Position numbers and translations under genes: made by a program
Source of the DNA: Phycisphaerales bacterium
GTDB taxonomy: Bacteria > Planctomycetota > Phycisphaerae > Phycisphaerales > UBA1924
Assembly: GCA_965228685.1 (NCBI GenBank)
Contig: CBDDIA010000001.1
Span: 549 to 64,548 of the forward strand
Reading direction: 5' to 3'
DNA length: 64,000 nucleotides
Notes under the pieces: model-generated
Seen by the model: the letters and a program-made list of their open reading frames with translations, nothing else
The model's database searches: none
Told to the model about the DNA's origin: nothing
Part shown: positions 6,341-21,689 of the stretch, one piece after another
Numbering within the stretch: position 1 is the first letter of the stretch
Layout: each line of letters starts with the position of its first letter

Positions 6341-6474
6341 GGAACTCAGATCATCTCCGTCCGTCCGATCCCGGACGGTACCCCATAGGATATAAGATCC
6401 ACGCATCCCGGGCGAGCGAATCGCCCGATCGGAGACCGAATTCCGAGCGCATCGGGACACGAAACCGACGCGGG

Positions 6475-7515: not shown

Positions 7516-7562
7516 GCATCTCTCAGATCAAACATCTGGCATGACGCCGGGGGTAATCAGGC

Positions 7563-9557
7563 TTAGTCCTTAATCACGCCCTCGACGCTGTTCTCGTCGC
7601 GCTGGTCGATCTTGATCTTGTAGATCTCGCGATGGCGTTCCATGCCCTCGGGCTCGGGGAAGGCCTGGGCAAAGTTTACATCGATGTTCCCGAGCTTGTG
7701 CTGCTCATCGATGAAGGCCTTGAACCGGATCACGAGGGTGTCGTAGGCGTACCGCTGCAGGTCCTTGGGTGCGTTCCCGTACAGGAGTTCCGCCTCGTCG
7801 AAGGGGAGTCGCGCGACGGTGTTGGCGAATGTGTTGCCCGCGTGGAACGGGAAGTCTCGGTCCATGAACTCCATGCGGGCGGTGTTTGCGCCCGCGACCA
7901 CATTGCGGAACTGCTCCTTAAAGAAGGCCGCGTGCGCTTTGCGGGCGTACTCCCACATCCCGTTGAATGTCTCGATGTCGCCCGCGAGCAGTCCCTGATA
8001 GAAGGCGCCCTGGAGTGCGCCGTCGACCTCGGAGACCGCGACCTGGGGCGAGCCCATCGAGTCGTAGATCATCTTGTCCGCGAACTCTTCGAGCGTCAGA
8101 GAGAACTCATAGGTGACGGTCGTATCGTTGATATTGATCCCCTCCCAGTTGCGGAGCTGACTGAACCAGTACTCCGCCTGGTCGATGTCGCCGCGTCGGA
8201 AGAAGAATCGAACCGCGTCACGCAGGAAGTTCATGTATCCAGCAGAGAACTGGCGATACGCGCGCCGCTCTGCTTCGAACAGGCCCGAAGCGACCGTGAC
8301 CTCTTCGAGCATTGCGCCGTAACTAGGCACGAAGTACGGGTTCGGGACGCCCTGGTAGTACGCTGCGCGATTCTCATGGACATCAAGGTAGTTGAAGTAC
8401 AGGTCCCCAAAGCGCCAGAGGTCCTGCACGGACTGCATGACGAGCCGGTATGCGTTGACAAAGTCGAGCGACTCGGCGTTGTGCTCATTGACCTCCATGC
8501 GACCGACATCGGTCCCGCGCGAACCCCAGTACAAGGAGTGGGCCGCGGGAAGACGCCAATCGACAGGCCCGAACTTTTTGGTGACCTGGACCATCCGCAC
8601 GGGCTCCATGAAGTACTCGTCCTCGAGCACCCGCTTGCGGAGATGGTTGAGCAGATCCTGCCAGTCCTGTTTCCAAGAGCGCTCGCCCTGCTTGGGATTC
8701 TCCGGGAACCGGTCCATGATCGCGATAAACGCTTGGGTCTTCGGGCCCGACGCTTCGCGGATCCCACCAAGGCGTCCAGCAGCATCGAGCTCCGTGTGAA
8801 GCATGTACCGCTCAAGCAGTCTTCGCCCGGGCTCCTCGCCCAGTACCTGTGTATATACGCTGGCAATCTCTGCTGCGCGGGGATTCTTGTTGGCGAGCTC
8901 GCTCAAGGTCGCCGGCGCATCGACGATCGGCTGGATCCAATCCGCGTAGAGCTCGATCACGCTATCGCGATCACGATGCTCAGGGTCGATGACGGGCTTG
9001 CGCCCGAGGATATTCTGCCACTCGTACGCGAACTGGCGTTTGTAGTACTGATTGGAATCGTCCGTGAACCCCGCGACCTTGTGAAGGAAGATCCACGCGA
9101 GTTCCTTGTGCATGTGCATGTCGTTGGGGTTCGCACGGATCCCCTCGTTCCGCAGCAGCCGGATACCCGCGTTCACCCACCCCCACCGTTCCTGGGGGGT
9201 GTTTGTGGTCACGGAGATGTTGTACGCGAGGTTCCACGCGTGGAAGGTCCAGACCGCAGGCAGGCGCGGCTGCAGTCGGGTGATCATCTCCGAGAGCTTG
9301 ATCGCCTCGAAGTACTGCCCCTCTTCTTTCATCGTGGTCGCGCGCAGCCAGAGGTAGTTCACGAACACGCCGCGCAGCGCGCCCATCGCGATCCCCATCG
9401 CAACGATCGGCGGGTCGTTCTCCTCAGCGGTATCCGTGTACGAGAGCCCGTGACGCCCGGTGGACGCGGTGATCTGTACCCCGAAGACCCCGGAGCCAAC
9501 CAAGCCCGCAAGCATGAAGAGCAACGCGATTGCCCGAACTCGTGTGTGATGCACCAT
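7563..9557 (-). CDS. Conserved hypothetical protein, N-terminal membrane anchor plus large alpha-helical (TPR-like) domain; last gene of the SPFH-ABC operon
   Basis: 664-aa uninterrupted ORF, 15 nt downstream of the permease gene. N-terminal TM (AIALLFMLAGLVGSGVFGV) and a second hydrophobic segment (IVAMGIAMGALRGVFVNYLWL). I recognise no enzymatic motif. Confidence 0.55.
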   Translation of the reverse strand: MVHHTRVRAIALLFMLAGLVGSGVFGVQITASTGRHGLSYTDTAEENDPPIVAMGIAMGALRGVFVNYLWLRATTMKEEGQYFEAIKLSEMITRLQPRLPAVWTFHAWNLAYNISVTTNTPQERWGWVNAGIRLLRNEGIRANPNDMHMHKELAWIFLHKVAGFTDDSNQYYKRQFAYEWQNILGRKPVIDPEHRDRDSVIELYADWIQPIVDAPATLSELANKNPRAAEIASVYTQVLGEEPGRRLLERYMLHTELDAAGRLGGIREASGPKTQAFIAIMDRFPENPKQGERSWKQDWQDLLNHLRKRVLEDEYFMEPVRMVQVTKKFGPVDWRLPAAHSLYWGSRGTDVGRMEVNEHNAESLDFVNAYRLVMQSVQDLWRFGDLYFNYLDVHENRAAYYQGVPNPYFVPSYGAMLEEVTVASGLFEAERRAYRQFSAGYMNFLRDAVRFFFRRGDIDQAEYWFSQLRNWEGININDTTVTYEFSLTLEEFADKMIYDSMGSPQVAVSEVDGALQGAFYQGLLAGDIETFNGMWEYARKAHAAFFKEQFRNVVAGANTARMEFMDRDFPFHAGNTFANTVARLPFDEAELLYGNAPKDLQRYAYDTLVIRFKAFIDEQHKLGNIDVNFAQAFPEPEGMERHREIYKIKIDQRDENSVEGVIKD

Positions 9558-9572
9558 CGACGCGCTCCCTTC

Positions 9573-11522
9573 TTAGTTGCCCGAGTACAGCGCGAGCTGC
9601 CGACGCCTGAAGATCAGCGTGCCCAACCCGAAGAACACGAGTGTCACCATCCCAAGGGTTACGACCCCGTTGGTGAGTCGTCCCCACGACAGCAGCTCAC
9701 CCTCCGCGATCCGCTTGGTCGGGCGGAGCTCGTTGTAGACCGTGAACACCGAGCTCACATTATCCGCGAGGTGGTAGATGATGGTCCTGTACAACGACGG
9801 GTCCCCTTCGACATTGGTCTTGCCCCACCCGGGAAGGGCTCCCTGAACGAACCCGGAGGTTTCGCCCATGAAGAACAGCCCGCCCGCGATCAGGCACGCG
9901 ACGGGGAAACTCGCGAAGGTCGACGCCCAGACCGCGAGCATCGCCAGCAGCGCGAGCTTCACCCAGAGTACGAAGTACACGCGGAAGAAGTTCGCCCGAT
10001 AGCTGCCCACCGAGTATGACACCTCGAGCCCGTCCGGTGGGATCGTGAATGTATTGACATTGCCCTGGAACCGGTACTCCAGATCACCGTCGGCGATGAG
10101 CTGCCCGTTGTAGATCTGCATCCTGAGCACGCCCTGATTATCGATCACATGCGAGGGGATCTGCATGCTGTGCGAGAACCCGAGACCCGTGCGCCGAGGC
10201 GGGAGGATGGTGCCATCCGGGAACACGAAGGTCAGGATGTAGGTGATGTCCGGGCGGTTGCCCTCTGCATCAATCTTGTACCGGAGGGTGAGAGGTAGGT
10301 TCCTCGCCTTGGCCTCACTCAGCCCGGCGAATGTAAACTCCTCGTACTGCTCCATCCGGGGATCGATCGAGAAGTACTGGGCGTACTCGTCACGGAAAAT
10401 CTGCTCACGCAGAACCGCCCGCTCGGTCGCATCAGGGTCGTAGTCCGGGTTCGATCGACGCTCATTCTCGATCTGAATCTGTACCGCCTGATCGAAGAGT
10501 TCGCTGTCGATGCTCATAGGCAAGACCGGCGTGCGCGCGACGCGGGCCGCGAGGATCTCGGACTCGAGCTTGAGCCGATCCTCCGTGAGCTCGGACCCGT
10601 CCAACGCGACGAATGGGCTCAGCTCGCCCTGCGCGGGTTGATTGCGGAGGAACTCGGTGAACTGGATCACCCCCAGCGCCGAGACCCCGAGCAGGATCGC
10701 CGCGAGCAACGAAACACCCAGCCACTTCCCGAGAAGGTACTGCCATGCCGCAACGGGCTTGGTCATGGTCTGCCAGATCACCTTCTCGCGTTGTTCATAA
10801 GAAACCGTCGCGGCCCCGAAGAACACGACGAGCAACGCAGTGAACAGGTAGGTAAACCCGGTTGAGTACTGCAGGAACCCCTGGACCCGGTAGCGCAACG
10901 ACTCGTCGCCCTCAAGCACCATCGGGAGGGTGGCGAGCGCGAAGAAGAGCAGCACGATGAGAACCATCGAGATCTTCATCCGCACCGCCTCGGCGAGCAC
11001 ATTGCGTGCGATCGTGAACACGGGGTGGGCGTACCCGAGCGCGAGCACCGCCGCCCGCATCAAGAGCATAAAGATCAGCGCGAGCGAGGTCATCCCCAGC
11101 GCGATCCCGCCCGTCACGGGGAAACCGAACCGTTGCCCCGCGAGGAAGATCAGGAATCCGAGCAACGCCAGGAACGGGTAGACGATCCCGAGATTCAACC
11201 ACACCACAAGGATGAGCACCATCCCGCCGGTGATCGACGCGTACAGGATGATGGTGCTCGGGTCGGCGTTGTTGATGATCTCCTTGATCTGCCTCGCACG
11301 CTCGATGTCTGGGTTGGGGATCATGTCGCCAAGGACATTCTCAACCTCGGCAGGCATCGCCGCGATACGCGCGTCGAACTGATCTGACGCGGGTTGCTCG
11401 CCGAAGATCGCGTACCCCGCAAGGATCACCATCGCCACAAGGATAACGACGCTCATCGCGATCTTGAACCCGCGATGACGCTGCACGCGATCGAGCTGGG
11501 AGAGTCGTTGCTGGAAACTCAC
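9573..11522 (-). CDS. ABC-2-type transporter permease with large extracytoplasmic domain
   Basis: 649 aa with multiple hydrophobic helices at both ends and a ~250-aa soluble insert. The start overlaps the stop of the upstream ABC ATPase by 4 nt (ATGA at 11519-11522), implying translational coupling. Confidence 0.6.
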   Translation of the reverse strand: MSFQQRLSQLDRVQRHRGFKIAMSVVILVAMVILAGYAIFGEQPASDQFDARIAAMPAEVENVLGDMIPNPDIERARQIKEIINNADPSTIILYASITGGMVLILVVWLNLGIVYPFLALLGFLIFLAGQRFGFPVTGGIALGMTSLALIFMLLMRAAVLALGYAHPVFTIARNVLAEAVRMKISMVLIVLLFFALATLPMVLEGDESLRYRVQGFLQYSTGFTYLFTALLVVFFGAATVSYEQREKVIWQTMTKPVAAWQYLLGKWLGVSLLAAILLGVSALGVIQFTEFLRNQPAQGELSPFVALDGSELTEDRLKLESEILAARVARTPVLPMSIDSELFDQAVQIQIENERRSNPDYDPDATERAVLREQIFRDEYAQYFSIDPRMEQYEEFTFAGLSEAKARNLPLTLRYKIDAEGNRPDITYILTFVFPDGTILPPRRTGLGFSHSMQIPSHVIDNQGVLRMQIYNGQLIADGDLEYRFQGNVNTFTIPPDGLEVSYSVGSYRANFFRVYFVLWVKLALLAMLAVWASTFASFPVACLIAGGLFFMGETSGFVQGALPGWGKTNVEGDPSLYRTIIYHLADNVSSVFTVYNELRPTKRIAEGELLSWGRLTNGVVTLGMVTLVFFGLGTLIFRRRQLALYSGN

Positions 11523-12799
11523 CGCTTGTCTTCCTCGTCGCCCTGGTCTTCATCGAGCAGCGACCCAATCACGCCCAGATCGACATCCTCATCCGTGGTT
11601 GAGGCATCGGGCCCTGTTTCTGCACGCTTCGTTGTTTCCTCGGGCTGGGACTCTTGCATCAACGAACCGATAAGCGATTCGTCCTCGCCTTCGGGTTCCT
11701 TGCCCTCATCGGAAGGCGCGATCTCGCTCGCGCGATCTGCGCCGGTGTCGGGCATGGTGGTCTCTTCGACCTGATCCTCAAGCAGCGACTCGATCAGCGA
11801 TTCGCCTTGGCGTTTCTCTTCTTCGAGCTCCGCGCGGAGGAATGCCGCCGTGGCACCGCCCTGCATCGCGCCCGAGGTGCTCGCCTTGTCCTGCTGGGCA
11901 CGCTCGACGATCCCGAGGAACAACTCCTCGAGGCGTTGGCGCGGGGCGCTGACGCCTCGGATGGATTTCTCGCCTCCGGTTCGACGCCGGATGACCTCGT
12001 CGATCTCTGCGATGGTCTGCTCATCGAGCTCGTCCGTCTCAATGATCGTCCGTTCCTTGCTCGAGAGCAGCTCATCGCAGGTGCCCTCACCGCGGATTTT
12101 ACCGCCGTATAGGATGACCATGCGATCCACGACATCCTCGACATCGCTCAGGAGATGGCTCGAGAGGATGATGGTCTTGCCGCGTCGCCCGAGCTCGATG
12201 ATCAGGTCCTTGACCTGGCGTGTGCCGATCGGGTCGAGCCCCGTCGTGGGTTCGTCAAGGATCAGCAGGTCCGGATCGTTGATCAGCGCCTGCGCGATCC
12301 CGATGCGCCGCTGCATGCCCTTGGAGTACTCACGGACAGGGCGGAACTGCGCGTGCTCAAGACCCACCATGTGCAAGAGCTCGTCGATGCGTGCCTTGCG
12401 GGTCTTGGTATCGAGCCCGAAGAGCTTGGCGTAGTAATCGAGCGTCTCACGCGCATTGAGGAACGGGTACAGGTAGCTCTCCTCGGGGAGGTACCCGATC
12501 CGGTTCTTGATCGCGACATCCGTCGGCGGCTTCCCGAACACCATCACACGCCCGCTCGTGGGCTTGAGCAACCCCAGGATGAGCTTGATCGTCGTGCTCT
12601 TGCCCGACCCGTTGGGTCCGAGGAGCCCGAAGACCTCACGCTCGTTGATGACGAGATCGAGCTTATCGACCGCGCGGGCGCGATCACGCATCCAGAAGTC
12701 CTTGAAGACCTTGGACAGCTGCTGGCACCCAACCACCGCTCGGGGGTTGGATGCGGGTGTGCTTTGCGGATTGCTCGTGCTCGCTTTGACCTGGGTCAT
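11519..12799 (-). CDS. ABC transporter ATP-binding protein (ABC-2/NatA/GldA-like) with ~125-aa acidic repeat tail
   Basis: Walker A LLGPNGSGKSTTIK, signature YSKGMQRRIGIAQAL, Walker B LLILDEPTTGLD, H-loop ILSSHLL. The C-terminal 125 aa are Asp/Glu-rich with three copies of an SLIxSLLxE-like motif. Confidence 0.9.
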   Translation of the reverse strand: MTQVKASTSNPQSTPASNPRAVVGCQQLSKVFKDFWMRDRARAVDKLDLVINEREVFGLLGPNGSGKSTTIKLILGLLKPTSGRVMVFGKPPTDVAIKNRIGYLPEESYLYPFLNARETLDYYAKLFGLDTKTRKARIDELLHMVGLEHAQFRPVREYSKGMQRRIGIAQALINDPDLLILDEPTTGLDPIGTRQVKDLIIELGRRGKTIILSSHLLSDVEDVVDRMVILYGGKIRGEGTCDELLSSKERTIIETDELDEQTIAEIDEVIRRRTGGEKSIRGVSAPRQRLEELFLGIVERAQQDKASTSGAMQGGATAAFLRAELEEEKRQGESLIESLLEDQVEETTMPDTGADRASEIAPSDEGKEPEGEDESLIGSLMQESQPEETTKRAETGPDASTTDEDVDLGVIGSLLDEDQGDEEDKR

Positions 12800-14275
12800 T
12801 TACTCTGCGTCCTCCGCCTGGATCCCGCGCTGGGTCCTGTAGAAATCTCGTGTCGCCTCTTCGCGTCGGCGTTGTTGCTGCTCGACCGCTTCGGCGCGAC
12901 GCTGCTCGCGGATGCGTTCCTCTTCCCAATCCTGATCCGGGTTGAGGATCAGCTCCGCGTCACGCCCTTCCGGGAGGTACATTGTGGAAACGAAGTCCTT
13001 GTTGAGGAAGGCCGCCATCGCCGCGGACCAGTCGCGTGCGATCATGAGGGTCGGGTTCGCCTCGAACTGGGCCTGCTTGGCTCGGAACTGCTCGAGGTCC
13101 GCGATCGCACGGGACACGCGTGAGGACGCTTGGGCCTGCGCGTTCTTGAGGATCTCGGAGACCTCCCCCGACACGAGCGAAATCGTGGACTGACCGTTCC
13201 AGTTCACCTCGCCGCCCATGAGCACCATGTCGATCTGAGCAAGGAGTGCTTCGGATTCTTCGATCTCGCCGAGCTCGGTGAGTCGTTCGTACTCGTTGAT
13301 CATCTCGATTAGCACGCCGGAGGCACGCCCGGCGACCTCGTTGAGCATCTGCTCACGCAGGAGCAACGCCCCCTCGCGTTCCTTGCCCGCGTTCTGGGCG
13401 GCAGACTGCACCGATGCAAACTGGTTGGACAGATACAGCGGCGGGCTCTTGCGCACGATCACCACGCGATCGATCGTGATCCCGGTCTCGATGTCATCGA
13501 GCGAGCGCTGGGCGATCACCCGGATCCGTTCGCCGATCGTTTCTGCGGATGTCTTGAGCAGATCATCGATCGTGGTCTCGGCCATGGTGTGCACCACTGC
13601 ACGACGAACGATCAGACGCACAAGGTTTTCCTCGTCTCGTTGCGAGCTGATATTCTGCACATACTCGCGATGATCCGAGCGATGGTAGTTCACGCGGAAC
13701 TGCGCGTGGGCGATGTTCTGATCCGCGGTGATGATCATCGAATCCTCGCCCGGGTTCAGACGCCCGAGCGACTTGAAGGACCCGAGATCCGTGTTCAGCA
13801 GGTCGTTCTCACTCAGCCCACCCGCTCTTGAGGGCATGAAGTCACGACCCATCGGGATCTCGACCGCGCCGGCACCGACACGAATCATCTCCCCGATCGG
13901 GTAGGGCGCCGTGAAGTGCGCCCCGGGCTCGATGTTGGTCTCGGTGGGTTTGCCCAGGAAGACCTTGATGCCACGCTCGCCCTCGTTGATCCGCTGGACC
14001 CCCGAGAAGAAGAACAGGACCACCAGGACGACCATGCCGAACTGGAGGAAGACATAAGTGATCTTCAGGGCGTCGGCGAGCGATTGGTTCGCCGCGTCCA
14101 TCCGCGCCCGGTTGTTCGTGTGCGCGCTCGTGGAGCGCCGATCGAAACGCACGGAGGCGCTGCGTCCGGATATGAGCCCGGGCTCAGGCACGGACTCGGC
14201 ACCGGATTCGTCGAGATCATCACCCAGGACAGGATCGGTAGGCACGGGCTGATCGTGTTCGTGAGGGTCGCTCAT
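12800..14275 (-). CDS. SPFH/band-7 domain protein, HflK-like
   Basis: 491 aa. Single TM (ITYVFLQFGMVVLVVLFFFSGV) followed by an SPFH core (ERGIKVFLGKPTETNIEPGAHFTAPYPIGE ... IITADQNIAHAQFRVNY) and a long coiled-coil C-terminus. Its stop codon abuts the ATPase start (TAA then ATG with 0-nt gap). Confidence 0.75.
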   Translation of the reverse strand: MSDPHEHDQPVPTDPVLGDDLDESGAESVPEPGLISGRSASVRFDRRSTSAHTNNRARMDAANQSLADALKITYVFLQFGMVVLVVLFFFSGVQRINEGERGIKVFLGKPTETNIEPGAHFTAPYPIGEMIRVGAGAVEIPMGRDFMPSRAGGLSENDLLNTDLGSFKSLGRLNPGEDSMIITADQNIAHAQFRVNYHRSDHREYVQNISSQRDEENLVRLIVRRAVVHTMAETTIDDLLKTSAETIGERIRVIAQRSLDDIETGITIDRVVIVRKSPPLYLSNQFASVQSAAQNAGKEREGALLLREQMLNEVAGRASGVLIEMINEYERLTELGEIEESEALLAQIDMVLMGGEVNWNGQSTISLVSGEVSEILKNAQAQASSRVSRAIADLEQFRAKQAQFEANPTLMIARDWSAAMAAFLNKDFVSTMYLPEGRDAELILNPDQDWEEERIREQRRAEAVEQQQRRREEATRDFYRTQRGIQAEDAE

Positions 14276-14278
14276 GGA

Positions 14279-15316
14279 TCAGTCCTCCGCCCCGCCGGTG
14301 TTCTGTTGACGCGCCTCGGGCGTGGGGATCTCGCCGTCAGAAATCTTGAGGATCTCGGGGTCGAACAGCTGCATCCCGTAATCCGAGGTCGAGAAGATCA
14401 GGGTGAACTTCTTGGCCATCGATTCACGCATGAGCTTGATGTTCTGGATGAAGACCGCGAGCTCGGGGTTGATGTTCTGCTGGGCAAGGTAGGGCGCTGC
14501 CTCTTCCTCACCCTTCGCGAGGATCTCGTCGGCGCGGCGCTGGGCGAACGCGCGGATCCGTTCGGCTTGGCTCGTTGCTTCTGCGTTGATCAGGCGTGCC
14601 TTGGAACGCCCCTCGGACTCGTACCGCTCCGCGAGCCGGTCGCGGTTCGCGCCCATCCGGTTGATGACCGCCCCGGTGGTTTCCTCGGGGAGCACGATGC
14701 GATCGATGCCGACGCTGATGATCTCGATCCCGTACGCGTCGAGCGATTGACCGCCCGTGCCGCCCTGGACGAGCAGCGATTGCACGGAAGACTCAAGCTC
14801 GGGGATGACGGATGCGCCCTGCTCGCTGGTGAACAGGTCTTCCATGCGGTACTGGCTCGTCTCACCCAGCGCACTGCGGAGCAGGTCACGCAGGACATCG
14901 TTCTCCGCCTTCGCGTAATGCTCCTGGGCACGATCGCCCGCGTTGGAGAAGCTGCGGAAGAACTTGAGCGGGTCCGACACGCGATAGAACAGGTACGACT
15001 CGACGATGATCTGGAAATCGTCCGCCGTCTGCACCGTCTCTGAGCGGGTCTGCACAAGACGGATCCGCTTGTCGTACTTCGTGACGCTCTGGAACGGGTA
15101 GGGTGCTTTGAAGTGCAGCCCGGGCTCGTCCACGATCGAGTTGTCGTTCGCGCTCCCGAAGGTCGTCTTGACCCCGATCTCCGTGAAACGCACGGTATAG
15201 GTCGCGCTAAACGCAATCAGCATCAGGATAAAGATGACCGCGAAGAGGGGGATGAACATTGATTTGAGCTTCAACACGGCTCGTTCTCCATTGTCGCACT
15301 GCTCGGCGAGGATCAC
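14279..15316 (-). CDS. SPFH/band-7 domain protein, HflC-like
   Basis: 345 aa. TM (MFIPLFAVIFILMLIAFSATY), then FTEIGVKTTFG...EPGLHFKAPYPFQSVTKYDKRI...TADDFQIIVESYLFYRVSDPLKF. It ends 3 nt upstream of the HflK-like gene. The start is uncertain (GTG 15316 or ATG 15259). Confidence 0.8.
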   Translation of the reverse strand: MILAEQCDNGERAVLKLKSMFIPLFAVIFILMLIAFSATYTVRFTEIGVKTTFGSANDNSIVDEPGLHFKAPYPFQSVTKYDKRIRLVQTRSETVQTADDFQIIVESYLFYRVSDPLKFFRSFSNAGDRAQEHYAKAENDVLRDLLRSALGETSQYRMEDLFTSEQGASVIPELESSVQSLLVQGGTGGQSLDAYGIEIISVGIDRIVLPEETTGAVINRMGANRDRLAERYESEGRSKARLINAEATSQAERIRAFAQRRADEILAKGEEEAAPYLAQQNINPELAVFIQNIKLMRESMAKKFTLIFSTSDYGMQLFDPEILKISDGEIPTPEARQQNTGGAED

Positions 15317-15363
15317 ACGCTCCGGGTGATCGCCCGGGCATTCATCACAAGGGGACTGGGTTG

Positions 15364-17490
15364 TTACTGAAGATCGGCGCCGCGTTCAGCATCGAACACG
15401 GTCGTCCCGGCCTTCTTATCCTGAAGTTCAAGGCGGATCTTGAGCGACTCGAGCTCCCCGGGTGTCAGGTACACCCGCGATTCTCGCATCGCGACAAGCA
15501 ACGCCTCGAAGTACATGTTGCTCCGGTACAGCTCCGGGGACGCGAGGTACGCCGCCTGCTGCCCTTGCAGCAGACTCGCGAGCCCGCGCTCGCTCATATG
15601 ACGCACCCACCGGTTCGCGCTGGCGCTGAGGATGAGCTCGCCCGCTTCGCCGCCTGCCCGTTCCAGCAGGCGCTGAACCTCGAGCTCGGCCTCGATAAAT
15701 GCGTCGGACTCGTTGCCCTCGCTTCGACGCAAGGCCTCGAGCACGACGAGCTTGGCGCTGATCTCCTCCGCAAGCTCGACCGAGCCCGCGATATCTGCGA
15801 GCATCGCGATCTGCTCTTTCCGCGCAAACTCGATCACCGACTCACGGTTCTGACGCGCGGAGATCACACGCTCGAAGGACGGCGCGACCTTGGTCGGCGG
15901 GTGCACGCCGTTGACCCCGACGAACAGGATCTCGATCCCGGCACCCTGCCCGTCGTTGAGCTGGGCGTACGCGTCTGTCAGTCGCTGCTTGAGTTCCGCA
16001 GGCATCGTGGTCCGATTTGTCGCGAGCACCTCGTCGATCGCAAGCTCACCCAGGTACTGCGTCACCACACGACGCCCGACCTGTAGCAGGACCTGATCAC
16101 GCTGACCCGGGGCTGCGAACTGATCGTACAGCTTCACATTGCGGACCACGAAATGCATGGGCACCTCAGCCGCTACCAGCGAGAGCTCTGCGACGCTGCT
16201 CGCTGCTTCATCGCTCGCGCGCGCTTCGATCTCTGGGTTCCGCTCGGGCTGGACGATGTTGAGACGCTCGCCTCGGGTGTGATTCTCTGTCCAGAGAATG
16301 ATGTTCTTGTCATCTTCGGGCGGGTTCGATGCAAGATGCAGCACACGCACACCGGTTGTGGTTCGGACTTCCTGATCGCCTCGCCCGACGGAGACCGGGG
16401 TCTCGTAAGTTGAGAACGGCCAGGGCCATTTCACATGCAGCCCCGGGCCGACATCGCCCTCACCCTTCTCACCGAAGCTGAACAATGGCTCGGAGATTAC
16501 GCCGTTGGTAAGAATCAACCCACGCTCGTGGGGCTCGACAACGACCATGGACGACATCAGCCACCCGATCCCGACCGCGATCGCGATCAGCGCGACGATC
16601 CACTTGCTCAGGAGCTGGTAAAACCACGAGCTCGTGACATCGATCCCGAACTGGTAGTTGACCGCTTCGCCGACATTCTCCGCGATCCGATCCGGTGCCG
16701 CGAGCAGACTCAAGAACCGCGAGTCAAACGCTGGTCGGGGTAGCTCGCCGGGCTTGCGGGGGCGGTACAGATCGAGCAGGAAGTTGAGGATGATCTCGAC
16801 GCCGTAAGCCATCATCCCGACCGAGATAATGTACGGGCCGTAGTTCACAAGGAAATCGATACCCAGCGCGAGCTGAAGGAACCCGCCGATCGCGAGCACC
16901 AGACCCACGAGCGCCGCCGCGACCGAGGTCGTCGCACCCGCTCGCAGGTTCGTCCACGCGTCGACCTTGGCCATGCCCGAAACGAACCGAGCGAAGACGA
17001 ACCCGACCACCGCGATCGAGATCCCGATCGCGAGCGCCCAACCGGGCTTGCTCGTTGTGTTCAGATCTCCGGGCTCGATCCCGCTGAACGCGCCGAACCC
17101 GAACCAGATCGTGATCAGCGCGAGCAGCAGACCCGTGCCTGGCACGATCCATTTATACATGAACGCGAGACGACGCGCCGCAACGCGGAGCTCGTCGTTG
17201 CTGTTCTCGAACGCGCTGGCTGCTGCGGCGCCGGACACCGCGAGCTGCTCGGCTTCCATCGCCTCGATCCGCTCGCGCCGGTGCTGATCAAAGACCAGAA
17301 GCAGCACACCCCAGACGAGGACCCCGCTGAGCAGGAACACCGTTCCCGCAGCCGCGCTGTCATCGCCTGAGGCCTGGGTATAGAAGAAGATCGTCAGGGT
17401 CAGCACGAGCTGGATAACCAGCCCGATGATGGCCGTGTTTGCCGCCTTGCGGTAAGTCAGATAGTCGCCCTGATTCATTGGGTGCGTCAT
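15364..17490 (-). CDS. Polytopic membrane protein (about 7 TM) fused to a C-terminal SPFH/band-7 domain
   Basis: ORF 15364..17580, with probable start MTHPMNQGDY at 17490. The N-terminal ~330 aa contain repeated hydrophobic helices. The C-terminal half has an SPFH-like core (ERGLILTNGVISEP...GPGLHVKWPWPFSTYETP...NIILWTENH...VPMHFVVRNVKLY). Confidence 0.7.
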   Translation of the reverse strand: MTHPMNQGDYLTYRKAANTAIIGLVIQLVLTLTIFFYTQASGDDSAAAGTVFLLSGVLVWGVLLLVFDQHRRERIEAMEAEQLAVSGAAAASAFENSNDELRVAARRLAFMYKWIVPGTGLLLALITIWFGFGAFSGIEPGDLNTTSKPGWALAIGISIAVVGFVFARFVSGMAKVDAWTNLRAGATTSVAAALVGLVLAIGGFLQLALGIDFLVNYGPYIISVGMMAYGVEIILNFLLDLYRPRKPGELPRPAFDSRFLSLLAAPDRIAENVGEAVNYQFGIDVTSSWFYQLLSKWIVALIAIAVGIGWLMSSMVVVEPHERGLILTNGVISEPLFSFGEKGEGDVGPGLHVKWPWPFSTYETPVSVGRGDQEVRTTTGVRVLHLASNPPEDDKNIILWTENHTRGERLNIVQPERNPEIEARASDEAASSVAELSLVAAEVPMHFVVRNVKLYDQFAAPGQRDQVLLQVGRRVVTQYLGELAIDEVLATNRTTMPAELKQRLTDAYAQLNDGQGAGIEILFVGVNGVHPPTKVAPSFERVISARQNRESVIEFARKEQIAMLADIAGSVELAEEISAKLVVLEALRRSEGNESDAFIEAELEVQRLLERAGGEAGELILSASANRWVRHMSERGLASLLQGQQAAYLASPELYRSNMYFEALLVAMRESRVYLTPGELESLKIRLELQDKKAGTTVFDAERGADLQ

Positions 17491-17879
17491 CCTCTGTCTT
17501 GATCGCGTGCTGTGCCCGCGAGCACTCGTCGCATGTCGGGTATCCGGTATCGCGCCTCGCGCGTCACCCCGTGCCCACACGCCGGGGTGGTGATACTAGG
17601 TGCATCAGTCGCATAAGTGGCAATCAACGCCCCGAACGCGGTTTCCTCGCCCCGATCGCGTCCCCAGCGATCCATCGGCGTGCGTGCAATGCCCCACCCT
17701 ACGATCACACACACGCAACGGTTCACACCCCACCGATCAGAATCTTCAACTTTCTCCAGACCCCCACCGAACCGATCACGCACAGACGCGTAGCACCAAC
17801 CGCAGCGTCCCCACATCCAGAACCATGCGCAGACCCTGCGCCCCCACACACGCCGCAAGCCACCCTATCATCCGCGTCC

Positions 17880-19397
17880 ATGATCACGACAGTCATACCA
17901 ATTGCCCGTAACGCGCTCAAAGAGAGCATCCGTCAGCCGGTGTTCTTTGTGATGCTCCTGCTCGCGGCCTTCATCCAGCTGCTCAACACCTGGGTCGTCG
18001 GGTTCACTATGGGCGCTTCCAATGTGCCCGGCGAGGTCACCGCCGATGACAAAATGCTCCTCGATGTCTCCATGGGAGGCATCTTCCTGCTCGGGATCAT
18101 CCTCGCCGCGTTCATCTCCACCGCGGCGATATCCCGCGAGATCGACAACAAAACCGTCCTCACAGTGGTTTCCAAGCCCATCTCCCGCACGAGCGTGATC
18201 CTGGGCAAGTTCCTGGGAATTTCGGTCGCGATGCTCGTCGCGATTCTGATCATGGTCGCGTACCTGCTCTTCGGGATCCGTCACGGGATCCTCTCGACCG
18301 CTGCCGATGACCCGGTCTGGCCCGTCATCCTCTTCTCCGTGGGCTCGATCTTCCTCTCCGTCTTGCTTGGGGCGCTGGGGAACTTCGCCTATGGATGGTC
18401 GTTCGGGCAGACCGCTGCACTCACCCTCTTGCCCCTGCTCTGGATCGGGTACGGCGCCTCGTTGTTCATCGATGAGGACTGGGCCCTGATGGACCCGAGC
18501 GAGAACTTCAAGCCGCAAATCATGCTCGCGTGCGCGTGCCTGGGTATGGCGCTGATGGTCATGACCTCGATCGCCACCGCGATCTCCACCCGGTTCGGGC
18601 AGGTCGTCACGATCGTGCTGTGCGCGGGGATCTTCATGATCGGGCTGCTCTCGAACTACTGGTTCGGGCGCGGGATCTTCGAGAACCAGCGCTTTGGGCA
18701 GGTCGCCGTCACCGAATCCCCGACCAACCTCGATCTCTACGACTTCTTCAACGATCAGGTGTGGGATCTCGCGGCGGCGCGAAACAACATGGAACTCGAA
18801 GAGTTCATCGAGGCCGGTTTCGACCCGCGCCGGTATGTGACACTCACCGAGTTGTTGAGCTTCGATCAGGAGCCGCTCAAGGACGATTCCTACTTCAACC
18901 AGGTGATGCTCCGCGAGCCCGGGTCGGTCCTGTACATCACGATGCTCGGCCCACCCCGCGAGGACATCCAGATCGGTGATCCGGTCTACTACGGCTCGAC
19001 CCCCTCGGGTGTTGGGATGATCACCCCCGAGTTCGCGCCCCTCGAGCCCGGCACGCCCCTCGAGAAGGACGCCCGCGACGAGCCCGGACTGTTCATCGTG
19101 GACATGGACGCGACACGCATCGCATTGATGCAGATCGGACGCGACGCGGTCCCGTTGTCACGCCCCCCACTCCCGGGCGACTCACTCTTCCGTCAGCGGA
19201 CGATCACCCACCCCGTCCCGCTCGCCATCTGGTCCGTCGTCCCCAACATGCAATCATTCTGGCTGCTGGATGCGATCACCCAGAACCAGCCGATCCCGCT
19301 CACGCATGTGTTTCTCGTGTACGCGTACGGGCTCTGCCAGATTGTGGTGTTCCTGTCGCTGGCGGTGATCCTGTTCCAGGGTCGGGATGTGGGTTAA
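17880..19397 (+). CDS. ABC-2-type permease-like polytopic membrane protein, divergent from the SPFH-ABC operon
   Basis: ORF 17439..19397. The first 147 codons are Pro/Arg/His-rich junk overlapping the divergent gene. ATG 17880 gives MITTVIPIARNALKESIRQPVFFVMLLLAAF, the typical N-terminus of ABC-2 (NosY/GldF-like) permeases, followed by about 6 TM helices and a C-terminal soluble region plus a final TM. Confidence 0.55.
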   Translation: MITTVIPIARNALKESIRQPVFFVMLLLAAFIQLLNTWVVGFTMGASNVPGEVTADDKMLLDVSMGGIFLLGIILAAFISTAAISREIDNKTVLTVVSKPISRTSVILGKFLGISVAMLVAILIMVAYLLFGIRHGILSTAADDPVWPVILFSVGSIFLSVLLGALGNFAYGWSFGQTAALTLLPLLWIGYGASLFIDEDWALMDPSENFKPQIMLACACLGMALMVMTSIATAISTRFGQVVTIVLCAGIFMIGLLSNYWFGRGIFENQRFGQVAVTESPTNLDLYDFFNDQVWDLAAARNNMELEEFIEAGFDPRRYVTLTELLSFDQEPLKDDSYFNQVMLREPGSVLYITMLGPPREDIQIGDPVYYGSTPSGVGMITPEFAPLEPGTPLEKDARDEPGLFIVDMDATRIALMQIGRDAVPLSRPPLPGDSLFRQRTITHPVPLAIWSVVPNMQSFWLLDAITQNQPIPLTHVFLVYAYGLCQIVVFLSLAVILFQGRDVG

Positions 19398-19404
19398 ACA
19401 TCAC

Positions 19405-20874
19405 TCAGTGTGATGCAATTGCACGCCCGTACACCTTGACGCACTTCTCGGCTGCACCGTCCCAGTTCAGACCACGCAGTTCGAACCGCCCGTGCTCTCG
19501 CAGGGTCTGCCCGAGCGGCGGGTAGCGCAGCACCGCGACGATCTTGTTAGCCATCTCGTCCGTGTCCCAGAAATCGACCTTCAGCGCGTGGGTCAGGACC
19601 TCGGAAACGCCCGATTGCTTGGACACAATCACGGGGACATCGTTCCGCATCGCCTCGAGGGGGGCGATCCCGAAGGGCTCGGACACGCTGGGCATGACAT
19701 AGCAGTCCGCCATCTGGTACACGCGATCGACATCGCGCCCGCGCAGGAAACCGGTAAACAGGACCTTGTGCCCGATCCCGATCGACGCGGCGTGCTCGAT
19801 CATCCGCACCGCCATATCGCCCGAGCCCGCGACGACGAACTTGACCTTGTCGTCCTTCTCCAAGACCCGCTTTGCTGCTTGGATGAAGTACTCCGGGCCC
19901 TTCTGCATCGTGATGCGCCCAAGGAAGAGGACGATCTTCTCGTCCCGCTCGATCGCCGCCCCGCGCTGGGGCTGGGCCTCGTGCTGGGCGACGCCGTTGT
20001 ACACCACATCAATCTTTGAATCGGGCACGCCGTAGCGCGCGTGCACGATCGCCTTGGTCAGGCGCGAGACCGCGATCACGCGATCCGCGCCCTGCATCCC
20101 AGCGCGTTCGATGTCGTACACGCCCTGGTTGATATGCTCGCCCGAGCGATCGAACTCCGTCGCGTGGATATGACAGACCAGGGGCTTGCCCGTGAGTTGC
20201 TTGAGCAAGAGACCGGCCTGATAGGTCAGCCAATCGTGCGCGTGGATGACATCGAACTGCTCTGTCAACCCCAGCGCCGCAACGAGTCGTGCGTACCGCT
20301 CGGCGTCGCCGAAGAGATCGGACCCGTACCCACTCGAGCACGACCCGAGCCCCTCGATCGATTCGAGCACATCCTCAAACGCGTCCGCGATTTGTTCGGC
20401 GCTCGCGGTCCGCAGCGCCACCATCCCGCTCGGATCACGCAGCGACGCCCGCGCCTGGGACTGGATCGTCCGTGACTCCTGAATCTCATGGATCAGACGC
20501 GTCAGCGAGTTCCCCGCGTCCACCCCGGGGTACGAGCTCGGGTAGCTCGTCTCAAACTCCTCCACCCGGCGCGTGAGCAGCTCGATCAGCTCCGGGTCGT
20601 CCTGGCGCACGGGCTCGTCCGTGTGGTGCGGGGTCGAGACCGGGATCGGTTGCGGGCGGATGGTTCCTTGGCGCAGCGAGGACACCCGACGCGCCAAGGC
20701 CTTGGGCCCGACCAGCTCAACATGCGATTGGTGCCCCTCGGGGATCGCCTGAGGGAGGACAAAAACGATCTCATGACCCTTCTTGACGAGCGAGCGCGTA
20801 AGACCCTCGACCGCGGTCCCCAGACCGCCAGCCATAAAGGGGGGAAACTCCCATCCGAGCATGAGAATACGCAT
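19405..20874 (-). CDS. GT-B glycosyltransferase, glycogen/starch-synthase-like
   Basis: 489 aa. N-terminal MRILMLGWEFPPFMAGGLGTAVEGL. C-terminal GT1 motif (YVMPSVSEPFGIAPLEAM). A ~150-aa insertion lies between the two Rossmann halves. Confidence 0.7.
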   Translation of the reverse strand: MRILMLGWEFPPFMAGGLGTAVEGLTRSLVKKGHEIVFVLPQAIPEGHQSHVELVGPKALARRVSSLRQGTIRPQPIPVSTPHHTDEPVRQDDPELIELLTRRVEEFETSYPSSYPGVDAGNSLTRLIHEIQESRTIQSQARASLRDPSGMVALRTASAEQIADAFEDVLESIEGLGSCSSGYGSDLFGDAERYARLVAALGLTEQFDVIHAHDWLTYQAGLLLKQLTGKPLVCHIHATEFDRSGEHINQGVYDIERAGMQGADRVIAVSRLTKAIVHARYGVPDSKIDVVYNGVAQHEAQPQRGAAIERDEKIVLFLGRITMQKGPEYFIQAAKRVLEKDDKVKFVVAGSGDMAVRMIEHAASIGIGHKVLFTGFLRGRDVDRVYQMADCYVMPSVSEPFGIAPLEAMRNDVPVIVSKQSGVSEVLTHALKVDFWDTDEMANKIVAVLRYPPLGQTLREHGRFELRGLNWDGAAEKCVKVYGRAIASH

Positions 20875-20923
20875 GGTGCGTGCTGCCTTTTACTCGTGTT
20901 CAGGACGGGCCCATCCCGCCCGA

Positions 20924-21394: not shown

Positions 21395-21595
21395 CGGGAC
21401 TGGTCCTTGATCTGAGTGGATCGATTGCACGCTCGGGGCGACCTGCCGCGCCCCGAACCGGCTTTCGTTGGATGATAGACGCGCCCAAGGGACACCGTGC
21501 CAAGTGGATCCGATAATCCAGACCCGAGCGCATCAATCGCGTGCTCGTTGGACTCGACAACTGTCAGCGGGGGTGTATACTTCCCCTCACAACTG

Positions 21596-21682
21596 GCCCA
21601 GGTGGCGGAATTGGTAGACGCGCCACCTTGAGGTGGTGGTTCTCATTATACGAGAGTGGAGGTTCGAGTCCTCTCCTGGGCA
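21596..21682 (+). tRNA. tRNA-Leu, anticodon GAG
   Basis: GCCCAGG acceptor pairs with CCTGGGC plus discriminator A. D-arm GCGGAATTGGTAGACGC. Anticodon stem CCACC/GGTGG with loop TTGAGGT. Long variable arm and T-loop GGTTCGAGTCC. CCA is not encoded. Confidence 0.9.
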
Positions 21683-21689
21683 TTGTTGG

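What the first reader, a model, noticed from the sequence alone, without database searches (positions are those of the whole stretch)
7563..19397. Ten-kb operon joining three SPFH/band-7 paralogues to an ABC-2 exporter, with a divergent extra permease
Seen: six minus-strand genes with intergenic distances of 47, 3, 0, -4 and 15 nt. In order they are a 7-TM-SPFH fusion (709 aa from ATG 17490), an HflC-like protein (345 aa), an HflK-like protein (491 aa), an ABC ATPase (426 aa), an ABC-2 permease with a large external domain (649 aa) and a 664-aa membrane-anchored helical-repeat protein. A second ABC-2-like permease (17880..19397) is transcribed divergently. Established: HflK/HflC normally partner with the FtsH protease, and SPFH proteins scaffold membrane microdomains. 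No ftsH or nfeD lies here. Inference: an SPFH cage or scaffold dedicated to an ABC exporter would be an unusual functional coupling and may be a lineage-specific envelope system. I cannot assign a substrate.
Basis: partly seen in the sequence, partly recalled or inferred. Interest (0 to 1): 0.7.

Follow-up and report, generated by a model that had tools for sequence, protein, structure and literature searches.

The report
Conserved SPFH–ABC-2 transporter envelope operon
A marine-type planctomycete (class Phycisphaerae) carries a seven-gene membrane module that always joins three HflK/HflC-like scaffold proteins to an ABC transporter and a helical-repeat protein, which suggests that bacterial SPFH "cages" can serve a transporter and not only the FtsH protease.

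Summary
Six tightly packed minus-strand genes (7563-17478) encode three Band_7/SPFH proteins, an ABC ATPase, an ABC-2 permease with a ~215-aa periplasmic domain, and a 664-aa membrane-anchored alpha-solenoid. A paralogous ABC-2 permease (17880-19397) is transcribed divergently.

The colinear seven-gene block is present in 62 of 63 testable GTDB species loci (all named Phycisphaerales, Phycisphaeraceae, Tepidisphaera or Planctomycetota). It is also present in 36 of 39 testable distant loci, down to ~27% identity of the solenoid protein. The flanking genes differ among these loci. No ftsH lies within 10 kb in any of 167 loci.

New details:
- All three SPFH domains are predicted to be periplasmic.
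- The most conserved part of the 7-TM fusion is a cytoplasmic loop.
- The ATPase carries a disordered acidic tail with a conserved box and three conserved short motifs.
- In distant relatives a heavy-metal P1B ATPase has joined the block at two different positions.

I found no publication that describes this association. Physical caging of the transporter and its substrate remain inferences. I class it as a new variant of the known SPFH-plus-partner kind, of moderately high interest.

The parts
17880..19397 (+). perm2: ABC-2 permease paralogue (505 aa). It has 8 predicted TM helices and a ~220-aa external domain before the last TM. It is transcribed divergently from the operon.
   Evidence: Pfam ABC2_membrane_2 at 44.5 bits, cut-off 27.2. 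It is 28% identical to the core TM1-3 and cytoplasmic loop of the operon permease, E 4e-10. Topology. It is present and divergent in all complete loci. In distant relatives it is ~320 aa and lacks the external domain.
17479..17879 (.). Divergent intergenic (control) region. It contains conserved blocks, including the inverted repeat GCGCAG-N3-CTGCGC (17827-17841) and a -10-like TAGTAT on the minus strand (17593-17598). GAGGA lies 8 nt before ATG 17478.
   Evidence: Alignment with 7 relatives. There is no Rfam match and no sigma-70 consensus promoter. A regulatory function is inferred.
15364..17478 (-). 7-TM/HflK-like SPFH fusion (704 aa). Predicted N-in, with 7 TM helices and then a periplasmic SPFH domain, coiled-coil region and HflK-like C-terminal motif.
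   Evidence: Band_7 at 32.8 bits. TIGR01933 hflK at 59.9 bits, cut-off 159.4. Colinear weak match to E. coli HflK from the TM helix to the C-terminal 'PE.xR..xY.E' region. Alternating K/R loop counts support the topology. Cytoplasmic loop 240-297 is the most conserved segment across 112 orthologues, 0.75 against 0.50 for the SPFH domain.
14279..15316 (-). HflC-like SPFH protein (345 aa). It has one N-terminal TM helix and a periplasmic SPFH domain.
   Evidence: Band_7 at 97.8 bits. TIGR01932 hflC at 113.6 bits, cut-off 134.4, aligned over 5-309 of 318 profile positions. The best solved relative is E. coli HflC, E 1.6e-26.
12800..14275 (-). HflK-like SPFH protein (491 aa). It has a 74-aa cytoplasmic N-terminus with a conserved juxtamembrane motif D.A..SL..AL, one TM helix and a periplasmic SPFH domain.
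   Evidence: Band_7 at 48.1 bits. TIGR01933 hflK at 86.9 bits, cut-off 159.4. Match to E. coli HflK. Conservation profile.
11519..12799 (-). ABC ATPase (426 aa) of the DrrA/GldA/NodI-like group, with intact Walker A, signature, Walker B and H-loop motifs.
   Evidence: ABC_tran at 113.8 bits. Best NCBIfam models are drrA (211.6) and GldA (199.5), both below cut-off. The motifs are visible in the translation. Its stop overlaps the permease start by 4 nt. The median gap to the permease is -4 nt in 78 loci.
11522..11914 (-). Acidic, low-complexity C-terminal tail of the ATPase. It carries a conserved 'TSGAxxGGxTAAFL' box and three short motifs: GESLIESLL, DESLIGSLM and DLGVIGSLL.
   Evidence: The box and the three [VIL][IL][DE/G]xL motifs are kept in all 78 of the first 80 loci that carry the ATPase and in nearly all distant loci. 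The linkers between them vary freely in length and sequence.
9573..11522 (-). perm: ABC-2 permease (649 aa). It has four extra N-terminal TM helices, a 6-TM ABC-2 core, and an external domain inserted between core TM3 and TM4.
   Evidence: ABC2_membrane_2 at 40.6 bits. AF2 model with pLDDT 81.2 and pTM 0.78, with the helix map. At least 679 homologues, some named 'ABC-type transport system involved in multi-copper enzyme maturation permease subunit'.
10002..10643 (-). Periplasmic domain of perm (residues ~294-507): a beta-sandwich plus a helical hairpin.
   Evidence: AF2 secondary structure. Foldseek gives only local, weak matches to the BcsB carbohydrate-binding domain, lectins, CBMs and GOLD domains (probability up to 1.0, E >= 0.02, TM <= 0.13 for the whole query). 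It is less conserved than the TM core.
7563..9557 (-). p664: membrane-anchored TPR-like alpha-solenoid (664 aa) of an unannotated family. The core 'LQPRxPxVWxFHAWNxAYNISV...NP...HK...DD..YYK' and 'GPxDWRxPxxHxxYW' is highly conserved.
   Evidence: No Pfam, NCBIfam or PDB sequence hit. AF2 model is all-alpha, pLDDT 80.8. Foldseek finds only generic TPR solenoids, E >= 4e-3. The family has 2684 50%-identity clusters at E<1e-3 and 919 at E<1e-30. Family-wide invariant residues.

Best explanation
This is a conserved seven-gene envelope module of Phycisphaerae-type Planctomycetota.

Its engine is an ABC-2 (type-V-like) transporter. It is built from one ATPase, presumably a homodimer, and two paralogous permeases. 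One permease lies in the operon and the other is divergently transcribed. They would form a heterodimeric membrane unit, as LptF and LptG do with LptB2. This transporter is made together with three HflK/HflC-type SPFH proteins whose SPFH domains face the periplasm, and most likely assembles with them.

The three SPFH proteins would form a hetero-oligomeric ring or cage on the outer face of the cytoplasmic membrane. That ring would corral or gate the transporter in a private membrane patch, as HflK/C does for FtsH. One SPFH subunit is anchored by a 7-TM domain whose conserved cytoplasmic loops give the periplasmic assembly a cytoplasmic contact surface. A plausible ligand for that surface is the ATPase's conserved three-motif acidic tail. 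The membrane-anchored TPR-like solenoid, probably periplasmic, is an accessory that receives or presents the cargo.

ATP hydrolysis would move the large periplasmic domains. This would extract or export a membrane-embedded or periplasm-directed substrate, possibly a glycolipid or glycan, or do mechanical work in the periplasm. The substrate is unknown.

Shown: gene content, domain families, predicted topology, tight packing, and very broad conservation of the block.

Inferred: the physical SPFH-transporter complex, the heterodimeric permease, the tail-loop contact, and the direction and nature of transport.
For: Conservation of the block:
- Colinear block perm2(-)|7TM-SPFH, HflC-like, HflK-like, ATPase, perm, p664 in 62 of 63 eligible GTDB species loci, down to 38% permease identity.
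- Also present in 36 of 39 eligible distant loci, at 27-30% p664 identity, with unrelated flanking genes.
- The block survives insertion of foreign genes: a PIN/methylase pair in L085 and a P1B ATPase in six loci.

Operon-like packing:
- Median gaps in relatives are 54, 3, 2, -4 and 21 nt. This includes the SPFH-to-ATPase junction.
- The junctions carry no terminator-like site. All 14 weak candidates lie inside coding sequence.

SPFH proteins:
- All three have the HflK/C architecture: an N-terminal TM helix, the SPFH domain, and the C-terminal region. Their best solved relatives are E. coli HflC and HflK.
- The predicted topology puts all three SPFH domains in the periplasm.
- The 7-TM domain's cytoplasmic loop 3 is the most conserved part of that protein.

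Transporter:
- The ATPase tail box and three short motifs are conserved family-wide, although the linkers between them are variable.
- Both permeases keep the conserved cytoplasmic loop motif (E..R...K....TKP / REI..KT.LTV.SKP), and there is only one ATPase gene.

Precedents:
- HflK/C cages or 'nautilus' assemblies enclose FtsH (PMC12048511; PDB 7VHP, 9CZ1).
- A flotillin binds an ABC permease directly in S. aureus (PMC10147376).
Against: - There is no direct evidence of a physical complex. AF-Multimer was not available and no experiment exists.
- Conserved co-transcription is also expected if the SPFH proteins only share regulation or a pathway with the transporter.
- FtsH partnership cannot be excluded, because ftsH is unlinked to hflKC in model bacteria too.
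- One locus (L163) keeps perm2|perm-p664 without SPFH genes or the ATPase nearby. One (L070) lacks p664 nearby, and one (L095) has p664 alone. The parts can therefore be separated, at least on the chromosome.
- The orientation of p664 is uncertain. A second, weakly hydrophobic conserved helix at 51-69 could be a TM helix.
- The glycan hint rests on weak Foldseek matches.
Confidence: 0.5

Rival explanations
1. The three SPFH proteins are this lineage's HflK/HflC equivalents and work with FtsH, which is encoded elsewhere. The ABC transporter and the solenoid are co-expressed because they act in the same membrane quality-control or envelope-homeostasis pathway, or because they are FtsH/HflKC clients. 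The SPFH assembly does not enclose them.
For: - The best family models and the best solved relatives are HflC and HflK. Source annotations call the orthologues 'membrane protease subunit HflK' or 'regulator of protease activity HflC'.
- hflKC and ftsH are unlinked in E. coli (established knowledge), so the absence of ftsH is not informative.
- E. coli HflKC affects many membrane proteins (PMC12005517).
Against: - All three proteins score below the NCBIfam HflK/HflC equivalog cut-offs.
- There are three paralogues, in the order K'-C-K. One carries a 7-TM domain that is not part of canonical HflK.
- The SPFH-to-ATPase junction has a median gap of 2 nt, and the genes stay together across deep divergence. 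That is tighter than expected for mere pathway sharing.
Confidence: 0.25
2. The module is a periplasmic metal- or cofactor-handling machine in the manner of NosDFY. The NosY-like ABC-2 unit would act as a mechanotransducer that drives conformational changes in periplasmic partners. Those partners would be its own external domains and the solenoid, rather than a transported substrate. The SPFH ring would organise the site.
For: - Orthologous permeases carry the COG1277-type label 'multi-copper enzyme maturation permease', and the Pfam family ABC2_membrane_2 is the NosY/GldF type.
- In distant relatives a heavy-metal P1B ATPase (TIGR01525 at 558.8 bits, CPC motif, His-rich N-terminus) is inserted between the HflK-like and ABC ATPase genes in 6-8 loci. 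In 8 further loci it sits convergent to perm2, so it occupies two different positions.
- A CDF cation-efflux gene follows p664 in L086.
Against: - There is no P1B ATPase or CDF gene in the window or in any of the 80 Phycisphaerales loci.
- There is no NosD, NosL or NosZ-like partner.
- The COG label is generic.
- The P1B enzyme lacks the Cu(I)-type YN/MxxSS motifs.
- Linkage in one sub-clade may be inherited synteny.
Confidence: 0.1
3. Two unrelated gene sets, an SPFH trio and an ABC transporter with its solenoid, merely sit side by side. They stay so by descent, without functional coupling.
For: - Phycisphaerales genomes show strong local synteny in general. purC, a 641-aa protein and a GT4 glycosyltransferase also stay next to the block in most close relatives.
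Against: - Those flanking genes are lost in more distant loci while the seven-gene block stays.
- The junction gaps of 0-3 nt and the 4-nt overlap suggest translational coupling.
- Only 4 of 102 eligible loci deviate from the full block, and in only two of them (L095, L163) do the SPFH genes part from the ABC genes or p664.
Confidence: 0.07

Closest known systems
HflK/HflC-FtsH complex of E. coli (PDB 7VHP, 7WI3, 9CZ1/9CZ2, 9PAW)
   Same: - Adjacent genes encode HflK-type and HflC-type SPFH proteins, each with an N-terminal TM helix and a periplasmic SPFH domain plus coiled-coil region.
- The best sequence relatives among solved structures are these proteins.
- They are expected to form a hetero-oligomeric ring or cage on the membrane.
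   Different: - There are three paralogues instead of two, in the order K'-C-K.
- One is fused to a 6-TM N-terminal extension with conserved cytoplasmic loops.
- All score below the NCBIfam equivalog cut-offs.
- They are co-operonic with an ABC-2 transporter and a solenoid protein.
- No ftsH lies within 10 kb in 167 loci.
NosDFY and GldAFG (ABC-2 systems with NosY/GldF-type permeases, COG1277)
   Same: - The same Pfam permease family (ABC2_membrane_2) and a DrrA/GldA-like ATPase.
- Both are thought to do work on periplasmic partners.
   Different: - No NosD (beta-helix) or GldG (ABC_transp_aux) partner is present.
- The GldA and GldF models score far below cut-off (199.5 against 402.6; 19.9 against 288.5).
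- There are two permease paralogues.
- The external domain is built into the permease.
- SPFH and solenoid partners are present.
LptB2FG lipopolysaccharide extractor
   Same: - One ATPase gene plus two paralogous permeases.
- A beta-rich periplasmic domain is inserted between TM3 and TM4 of the 6-TM core. For perm this comes from the AF2 helix map. For LptF/G it is established knowledge.
- A membrane-anchored TPR protein (LapB) and FtsH act in the same pathway in E. coli.
   Different: - No match to the LptF/LptG Pfam family.
- The LptB model scores 137.7 against a cut-off of 240.
- perm2's external domain sits before its last TM helix and is absent in distant relatives.
- Foldseek did not return LptF/G.
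SPFH-NfeD operons (stomatin/flotillin with NfeD partner; Hinderhofer et al. 2009, PMC2636767)
   Same: - An SPFH gene is kept in a conserved operon with a dedicated membrane partner.
   Different: - The partner here is an ABC transporter plus a solenoid, not NfeD.
- That survey of 497 genomes and 12 SPFH subfamilies never mentions ABC or transporter partners.
S. aureus FloA with the IsdF/FhuC ABC importer (PMC10147376)
   Same: - An SPFH scaffold binds an ABC permease directly and is needed for its function.
   Different: - Flotillin faces the cytoplasm.
- The genes are not linked.
- It involves an importer of a different ABC type.

Membership tests
HflK/HflC (FtsH protease modulators) | SPFH/Band_7 domain | tested here: met
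   PF01145 above the gathering score in all three proteins: 32.8, 97.8 and 48.1 bits against 23.6.
HflK/HflC (FtsH protease modulators) | N-terminal membrane anchor with the SPFH domain on the periplasmic side | tested here: met
   Hydropathy and the positive-inside rule give N-in and C-out for all three proteins, including the 7-TM fusion. This is a prediction only.
HflK/HflC (FtsH protease modulators) | Score at or above the curated equivalog cut-offs (TIGR01932 hflC, TIGR01933 hflK) | tested here: not met
   113.6 against 134.4 for the HflC-like protein. 86.9 and 59.9 against 159.4 for the two HflK-like proteins.
HflK/HflC (FtsH protease modulators) | Physical and functional partnership with FtsH | not testable with these tools
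   No ftsH in the window or in 2.7 Mb of related loci (probe validated). Linkage is not expected even for true HflKC.
ABC-2 type (type V-like) ABC transporter | ATPase with Walker A, signature, Walker B and H-loop motifs | tested here: met
   PF00005 at 113.8 bits. GPNGSGKST, YSKGMQRR, LLILDEPTTGLD and SSHLL are visible in the translation and nearly invariant in 122 orthologues.
ABC-2 type (type V-like) ABC transporter | Permease matching an ABC-2 membrane family, with a 6-TM core | tested here: met
   ABC2_membrane_2 at 40.6 and 44.5 bits against 27.2. The AF2 helix map shows the core helices, with short external helices between TM5 and TM6.
GldAFG gliding-motility ABC system | GldA and GldF equivalogs plus a GldG (ABC_transp_aux) partner | tested here: not met
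   GldA scores 199.5 against 402.6 and GldF 19.9 against 288.5. No ABC_transp_aux hit in any gene of the block.
NosDFY | NosD periplasmic beta-helix partner, with NosL and NosZ in the context | tested here: not met
   No such Pfam domain in the block or in the scanned window ORFs.
LptB2FG | LptF/LptG family permeases and an LptB equivalog | tested here: not met
   No LptF_LptG Pfam hit. LptB scores 137.7 against 240.
SPFH-NfeD operon | An NfeD gene adjacent to the SPFH gene | tested here: not met
   No NfeD domain in the block or the window.
TPR repeat proteins | Recognisable TPR sequence repeats, or a TPR fold | tested here: inconclusive
   No TPR Pfam hit at E<=0.01 for the window protein. 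Faint TPR_14 hits occur in a few relatives. Foldseek finds TPR solenoids only at E 4e-3 to 0.1 and TM <0.2.
Anti-phage defence systems | Match to a PADLOC model specific to a defence system | tested here: not met
   The ATPase gives only generic P-loop matches. The other six proteins give nothing.

The most novel reading that the evidence does not exclude
The three HflK/HflC-like proteins build a periplasm-facing SPFH cage whose dedicated client is an ABC-2 transporter and not a protease. The 7-TM subunit wires the cage to the transporter's ATPase through the conserved acidic three-motif tail. This would be a new class of SPFH-client supercomplex. It would show that SPFH cages are general enclosures for membrane machines and would give a genetically defined client for testing what the enclosure does.
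Probability: 0.4. Interest if true: 0.8.

Novelty: new variant of a known kind. Interest (0 to 1): 0.62.

Why it matters
What bacterial SPFH assemblies do beyond modulating FtsH is still open (PMC12005517, PMC12048511). This module offers a genetically hard-wired alternative client, an ABC-2 transporter with its own accessory protein. It is conserved in hundreds of species of an abundant marine and soil lineage.

If the complex is physical, it becomes a tractable system for asking how an SPFH enclosure changes the activity of a membrane machine. It would also define a new envelope system in Planctomycetota, whose envelope biology is poorly understood. In addition, the analysis annotates a large family of 'hypothetical' solenoid proteins (at least 900 clusters at 50% identity) by context.

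Tried and rejected
- Riboswitch or RNA leader as a clue to the substrate. Rfam found nothing in 6400-21700 except a tRNA at 21596-21682.
- Sigma-70 promoter and terminator scan. It found no promoter-like site and only weak terminator-like hairpins, all inside coding sequence.
- Defence-system reading. PADLOC gave only generic P-loop hits.
- Sequence search of the PDB for p664, perm and perm2. It found nothing usable.
- Foldseek of full-length p664 and perm. It returned only generic TPR solenoids, and local beta-sandwich matches for the external domain. I do not treat the BcsB/CBM resemblance as more than a hint.
- p664 solenoid as a cytoplasmic receptor for the ATPase tail. I considered this and then downgraded it. 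The second hydrophobic helix (51-69) carries Arg plus Asp or Asn in distant relatives, so it is probably not a TM helix. That would put the solenoid in the periplasm.
- GT4 glycosyltransferase, purC and the 641-aa neighbour as parts of the system. I rejected this because they are lost in distant loci.
- Literature searches for an SPFH-ABC operon or for HflK in Planctomycetes/Phycisphaerae. They found nothing relevant.
- Taxonomic reach beyond Planctomycetota. This could not be established. The tools list only the best hits, and all named ones are Phycisphaerae or Planctomycetota.

Full report
**Observation**

The six minus-strand ORFs and the divergent ORF are at the coordinates given, with gaps of 47, 3, 0, -4 and 15 nt.

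Pfam results:
- Band_7/SPFH in three proteins.
- ABC_tran in the 426-aa protein.
- ABC2_membrane_2 above the gathering score in both the 649-aa permease and the divergent 505-aa protein.
- Nothing in the 664-aa protein.

NCBIfam's best models are hflC for the 345-aa protein and hflK for the 491-aa and 7-TM proteins. All three score below the equivalog cut-offs. For the ATPase, the drrA, GldA, NodI and LptB models all score below cut-off. Window G+C is even, at about 0.62.

The 7-TM fusion most likely starts at ATG 17478 (704 aa):
- In the seven aligned relatives, 7-8 bases separate the conserved GAGGA from that ATG.
- An identical 704-aa protein exists in public data, on a 64.6-kb contig.

Neither ftsH nor nfeD is present among the roughly 40 large window ORFs scanned or by an FtsH probe.

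**Anatomy**

Hydropathy and the positive-inside rule give the following picture:
- The fusion protein is N-in and has seven TM helices, so its SPFH domain is periplasmic.
- The HflC-like and HflK-like proteins each have one N-terminal TM helix and a periplasmic SPFH domain, as in E. coli HflK/C.

The fusion protein is weakly but colinearly related to E. coli HflK, from the last TM helix through the SPFH domain to the C-terminal 'PE.xR..xY.E' region. The HflC-like protein matches E. coli HflC at E 1.6e-26.

The operon permease was modelled with AF2 (pLDDT 81.2, pTM 0.78). It has these parts:
- four extra N-terminal helices;
- a cytoplasmic interface helix;
- a 6-TM ABC-2 core, with short external helices between TM5 and TM6;
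- an external domain at 294-507, between core TM3 and TM4, made of a beta-sandwich and a helical hairpin.

Foldseek gives only local, weak matches for that domain: the BcsB carbohydrate-binding domain, lectins, CBMs and GOLD domains.

The divergent permease aligns with the operon permease over the interface helix, TM1-3 and the conserved cytoplasmic loop (28% identity, E 4e-10). It has its own ~220-aa external domain before its last TM helix. With one ATPase gene and two permease paralogues, a heterodimeric membrane unit is the simplest reading (inference).

The 664-aa protein was modelled with AF2 (pLDDT 80.8). It is an N-terminally anchored all-alpha solenoid. Foldseek finds only generic TPR-like solenoids.

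**Conservation**

The permease has at least 679 homologues, the solenoid at least 1001 and the fusion protein at least 1059. Those that carry a taxon name are all Phycisphaerales or Planctomycetota MAGs.

A scan of one genome per GTDB species found 363 species with a permease relative. The best 80 loci are all labelled Phycisphaerales, Phycisphaeraceae, Tepidisphaera or Planctomycetota, apart from three deposited only as 'uncultured bacterium'.

Results from those 80 loci:
- tblastn of the window proteins shows the colinear block perm2(-)|7TM-SPFH, HflC-like, HflK-like, ATPase, perm, p664 in 62 of 63 loci with enough flank. This holds down to 38% permease identity.
- The one exception, L070, lacks p664 nearby.
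- The flanking genes (GT4 glycosyltransferase, purC and a 641-aa protein) are kept in close relatives but lost in several distant ones, while the block stays.
- Estimated gaps in relatives have medians of 54, 3, 2, -4 and 21 nt.

A profile of the solenoid family finds 2684 clusters at 50% identity (E<1e-3) and 919 at E<1e-30.

I then checked the context of solenoid relatives at 27-30% identity:
- The same block appears with unrelated neighbours in L081, L083, L084 and L087.
- L085 keeps the block with a PIN/methylase insertion between the ATPase and the permease.
- A metagenome scan seeded with the most divergent members, analysed with local HMMs, gives the full block in 36 of 39 eligible loci.

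The exceptions among the distant loci are:
- L095: p664 alone, beside a LexA gene and a phage terminase.
- L163: perm2|perm-p664 without SPFH genes or the ATPase.
- L150: no perm2 within 1.3 kb.
- L089: a rearrangement (SPFH fusion divergent from perm2-p664), on a contig too short to judge.

In this distant clade perm2 is ~320 aa without an external domain, and perm is ~450-540 aa.

No ftsH occurs in the 2.7 Mb of loci.

**New features**

(i) The ATPase has a ~130-aa acidic, low-complexity tail. It carries a conserved 'TSGAxxGGxTAAFL' box and three copies of a short [VIL][IL][DE/G]xL motif. Both are kept across the whole family, while the linkers between them vary freely. This is the signature of short linear binding motifs.

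(ii) In the 7-TM fusion, the most conserved segment is cytoplasmic loop 3 (residues 240-297). Its conservation is 0.75, against 0.50 for the SPFH domain. Its motif is L..YRPR..G...DSR.L...P...A..YQFG..V...W.Y.L. The HflK-like protein has a conserved cytoplasmic juxtamembrane motif, D.A..SL..AL. These give the periplasmic SPFH assembly conserved cytoplasmic surfaces. That the ATPase tail binds them is my inference.

(iii) The solenoid's conserved core (residues ~60-185 and 330-345) is rich in invariant Trp, Asn, His, Asp, Arg and Tyr. This suggests a ligand-binding groove and not a mere spacer.

Its second hydrophobic helix (51-69) is marginal in the window protein (hydropathy 1.62) and carries Arg plus Asp or Asn in relatives. 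I therefore favour a single N-terminal anchor and a periplasmic solenoid, with about 60% confidence.

(iv) In the distant clade a heavy-metal P1B ATPase has joined the block. It scores 558.8 bits on TIGR01525 and has a CPC motif and a His-rich N-terminus. Its positions are as follows:
- Between the HflK-like and ABC ATPase genes in L134, L141, L142, L149, L156 and L160, and probably in L151 and L155.
- Convergent to perm2 in L087, L096, L099, L102, L112, L122, L138 and L164.

A CDF efflux gene follows p664 in L086. None of this occurs in the window's own clade.

**Interpretation**

The conserved, tightly packed block is strong evidence that the SPFH trio, the ABC-2 transporter and the solenoid work together. 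It survives loss of all flanking synteny and insertion of foreign genes.

The most economical mechanism is a hetero-oligomeric HflK/C-type ring or cage on the periplasmic face that encloses or organises the transporter.
- This would resemble HflK/C with FtsH (PMC12048511; PDB entries).
- It also echoes the direct flotillin-permease interaction in S. aureus (PMC10147376).

The alternative is that the trio is simply this lineage's HflKC, working with an unlinked FtsH and co-expressed with the transporter. This cannot be excluded, because hflKC and ftsH are unlinked in E. coli too.

A NosDFY-like metal or cofactor role is hinted at only by the generic COG label and by the P1B linkage in a distant clade. 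Pure synteny without function is unlikely.

**Comparison and novelty**

The components belong to known superfamilies (SPFH, ABC-2, TPR-like). The module fails the defining tests for the following systems (see the membership table):
- HflK/HflC equivalogs;
- GldAFG;
- NosDFY;
- LptB2FG;
- SPFH-NfeD operons.

The 2009 survey of prokaryotic SPFH operon partners never mentions ABC or transporter partners. Six full-text searches found no description of this association.

I therefore rate it a new variant of the SPFH-plus-dedicated-partner kind. The gene-level finding is solid. The physical model and the substrate are open.

Noticed in passing
window 11522-11914 (-): The ABC ATPase ends in a ~130-aa acidic disordered tail. 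It carries a conserved TSGAxxGGxTAAFL box and three conserved short motifs (GESLIESLL, DESLIGSLM, DLGVIGSLL). These are kept family-wide, although the linkers between them vary freely.
   Followed up: partly
L134, L141, L142 (5368-7317), L149, L156, L160; L087, L096, L099, L102, L112, L122, L138, L164: In distant relatives a heavy-metal P1B P-type ATPase (CPC motif, His-rich N-terminus) is either inserted between the HflK-like and ABC ATPase genes or sits convergent to perm2. In L086 a CDF cation-efflux gene follows the solenoid gene. This may point to a metal link. It is absent from the window's clade.
   Followed up: partly
window 17827-17841 and 17593-17598: The divergent intergenic region has blocks conserved among 8 relatives. 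They include the inverted repeat GCGCAG-N3-CTGCGC, 39-53 nt upstream of the perm2 start, and a -10-like TAGTAT about 115 nt upstream of the operon's first ATG.
   Followed up: partly
window 21596-21682 (+): A tRNA gene (Rfam, 53.8 bits) overlaps the 5' end of the long ORF 21656-22972 that encodes CheB. The CheB start is therefore probably further downstream. CheR (23599-24471) and a CheA-CheW fusion (24475-26784) follow.
   Followed up: no
window 718-4160 (-): The transcription-repair coupling factor Mfd appears as two overlapping ORFs in different frames. ORF 2658-4160 carries the UvrB-interaction domain. ORF 718-2796 carries the CarD_TRCF_RID, helicase and TRCF domains. This could be a frameshift, a pseudogene or an assembly error.
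   Followed up: no
L085 3783-5838: A PIN-domain gene with a small partner gene, plus an N6/N4 DNA methyltransferase, are inserted between the ABC ATPase and the permease. The rest of the block is intact.
   Followed up: no
L163 7198-11861; L095 9890-11920; L070: Rare split variants exist. L163 has perm2|perm-solenoid without SPFH genes or the ATPase, next to DUF1559 and type II secretion genes. L095 has the solenoid alone, beside LexA and a phage terminase. L070 has the block without the solenoid.
   Followed up: partly
window 19405-20874 (-), 4625-6550 (-), 6475-7515 (+): A GT4 glycosyltransferase with a ~190-aa N-terminal extension, a 641-aa protein with a sub-threshold GH10 hit, and purC flank the block in most Phycisphaerales. 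They are absent around distant copies, so they are not core parts.
   Followed up: yes
window 40637-41956 and 48617-51676 (+): Fatty-acid synthesis genes are present: fabF-like at 40637-41956, and plsX, fabH and fabD at 48617-51676. Several prepilin-type N_methyl proteins also occur (42426-43481, 60020-60835).
   Followed up: no
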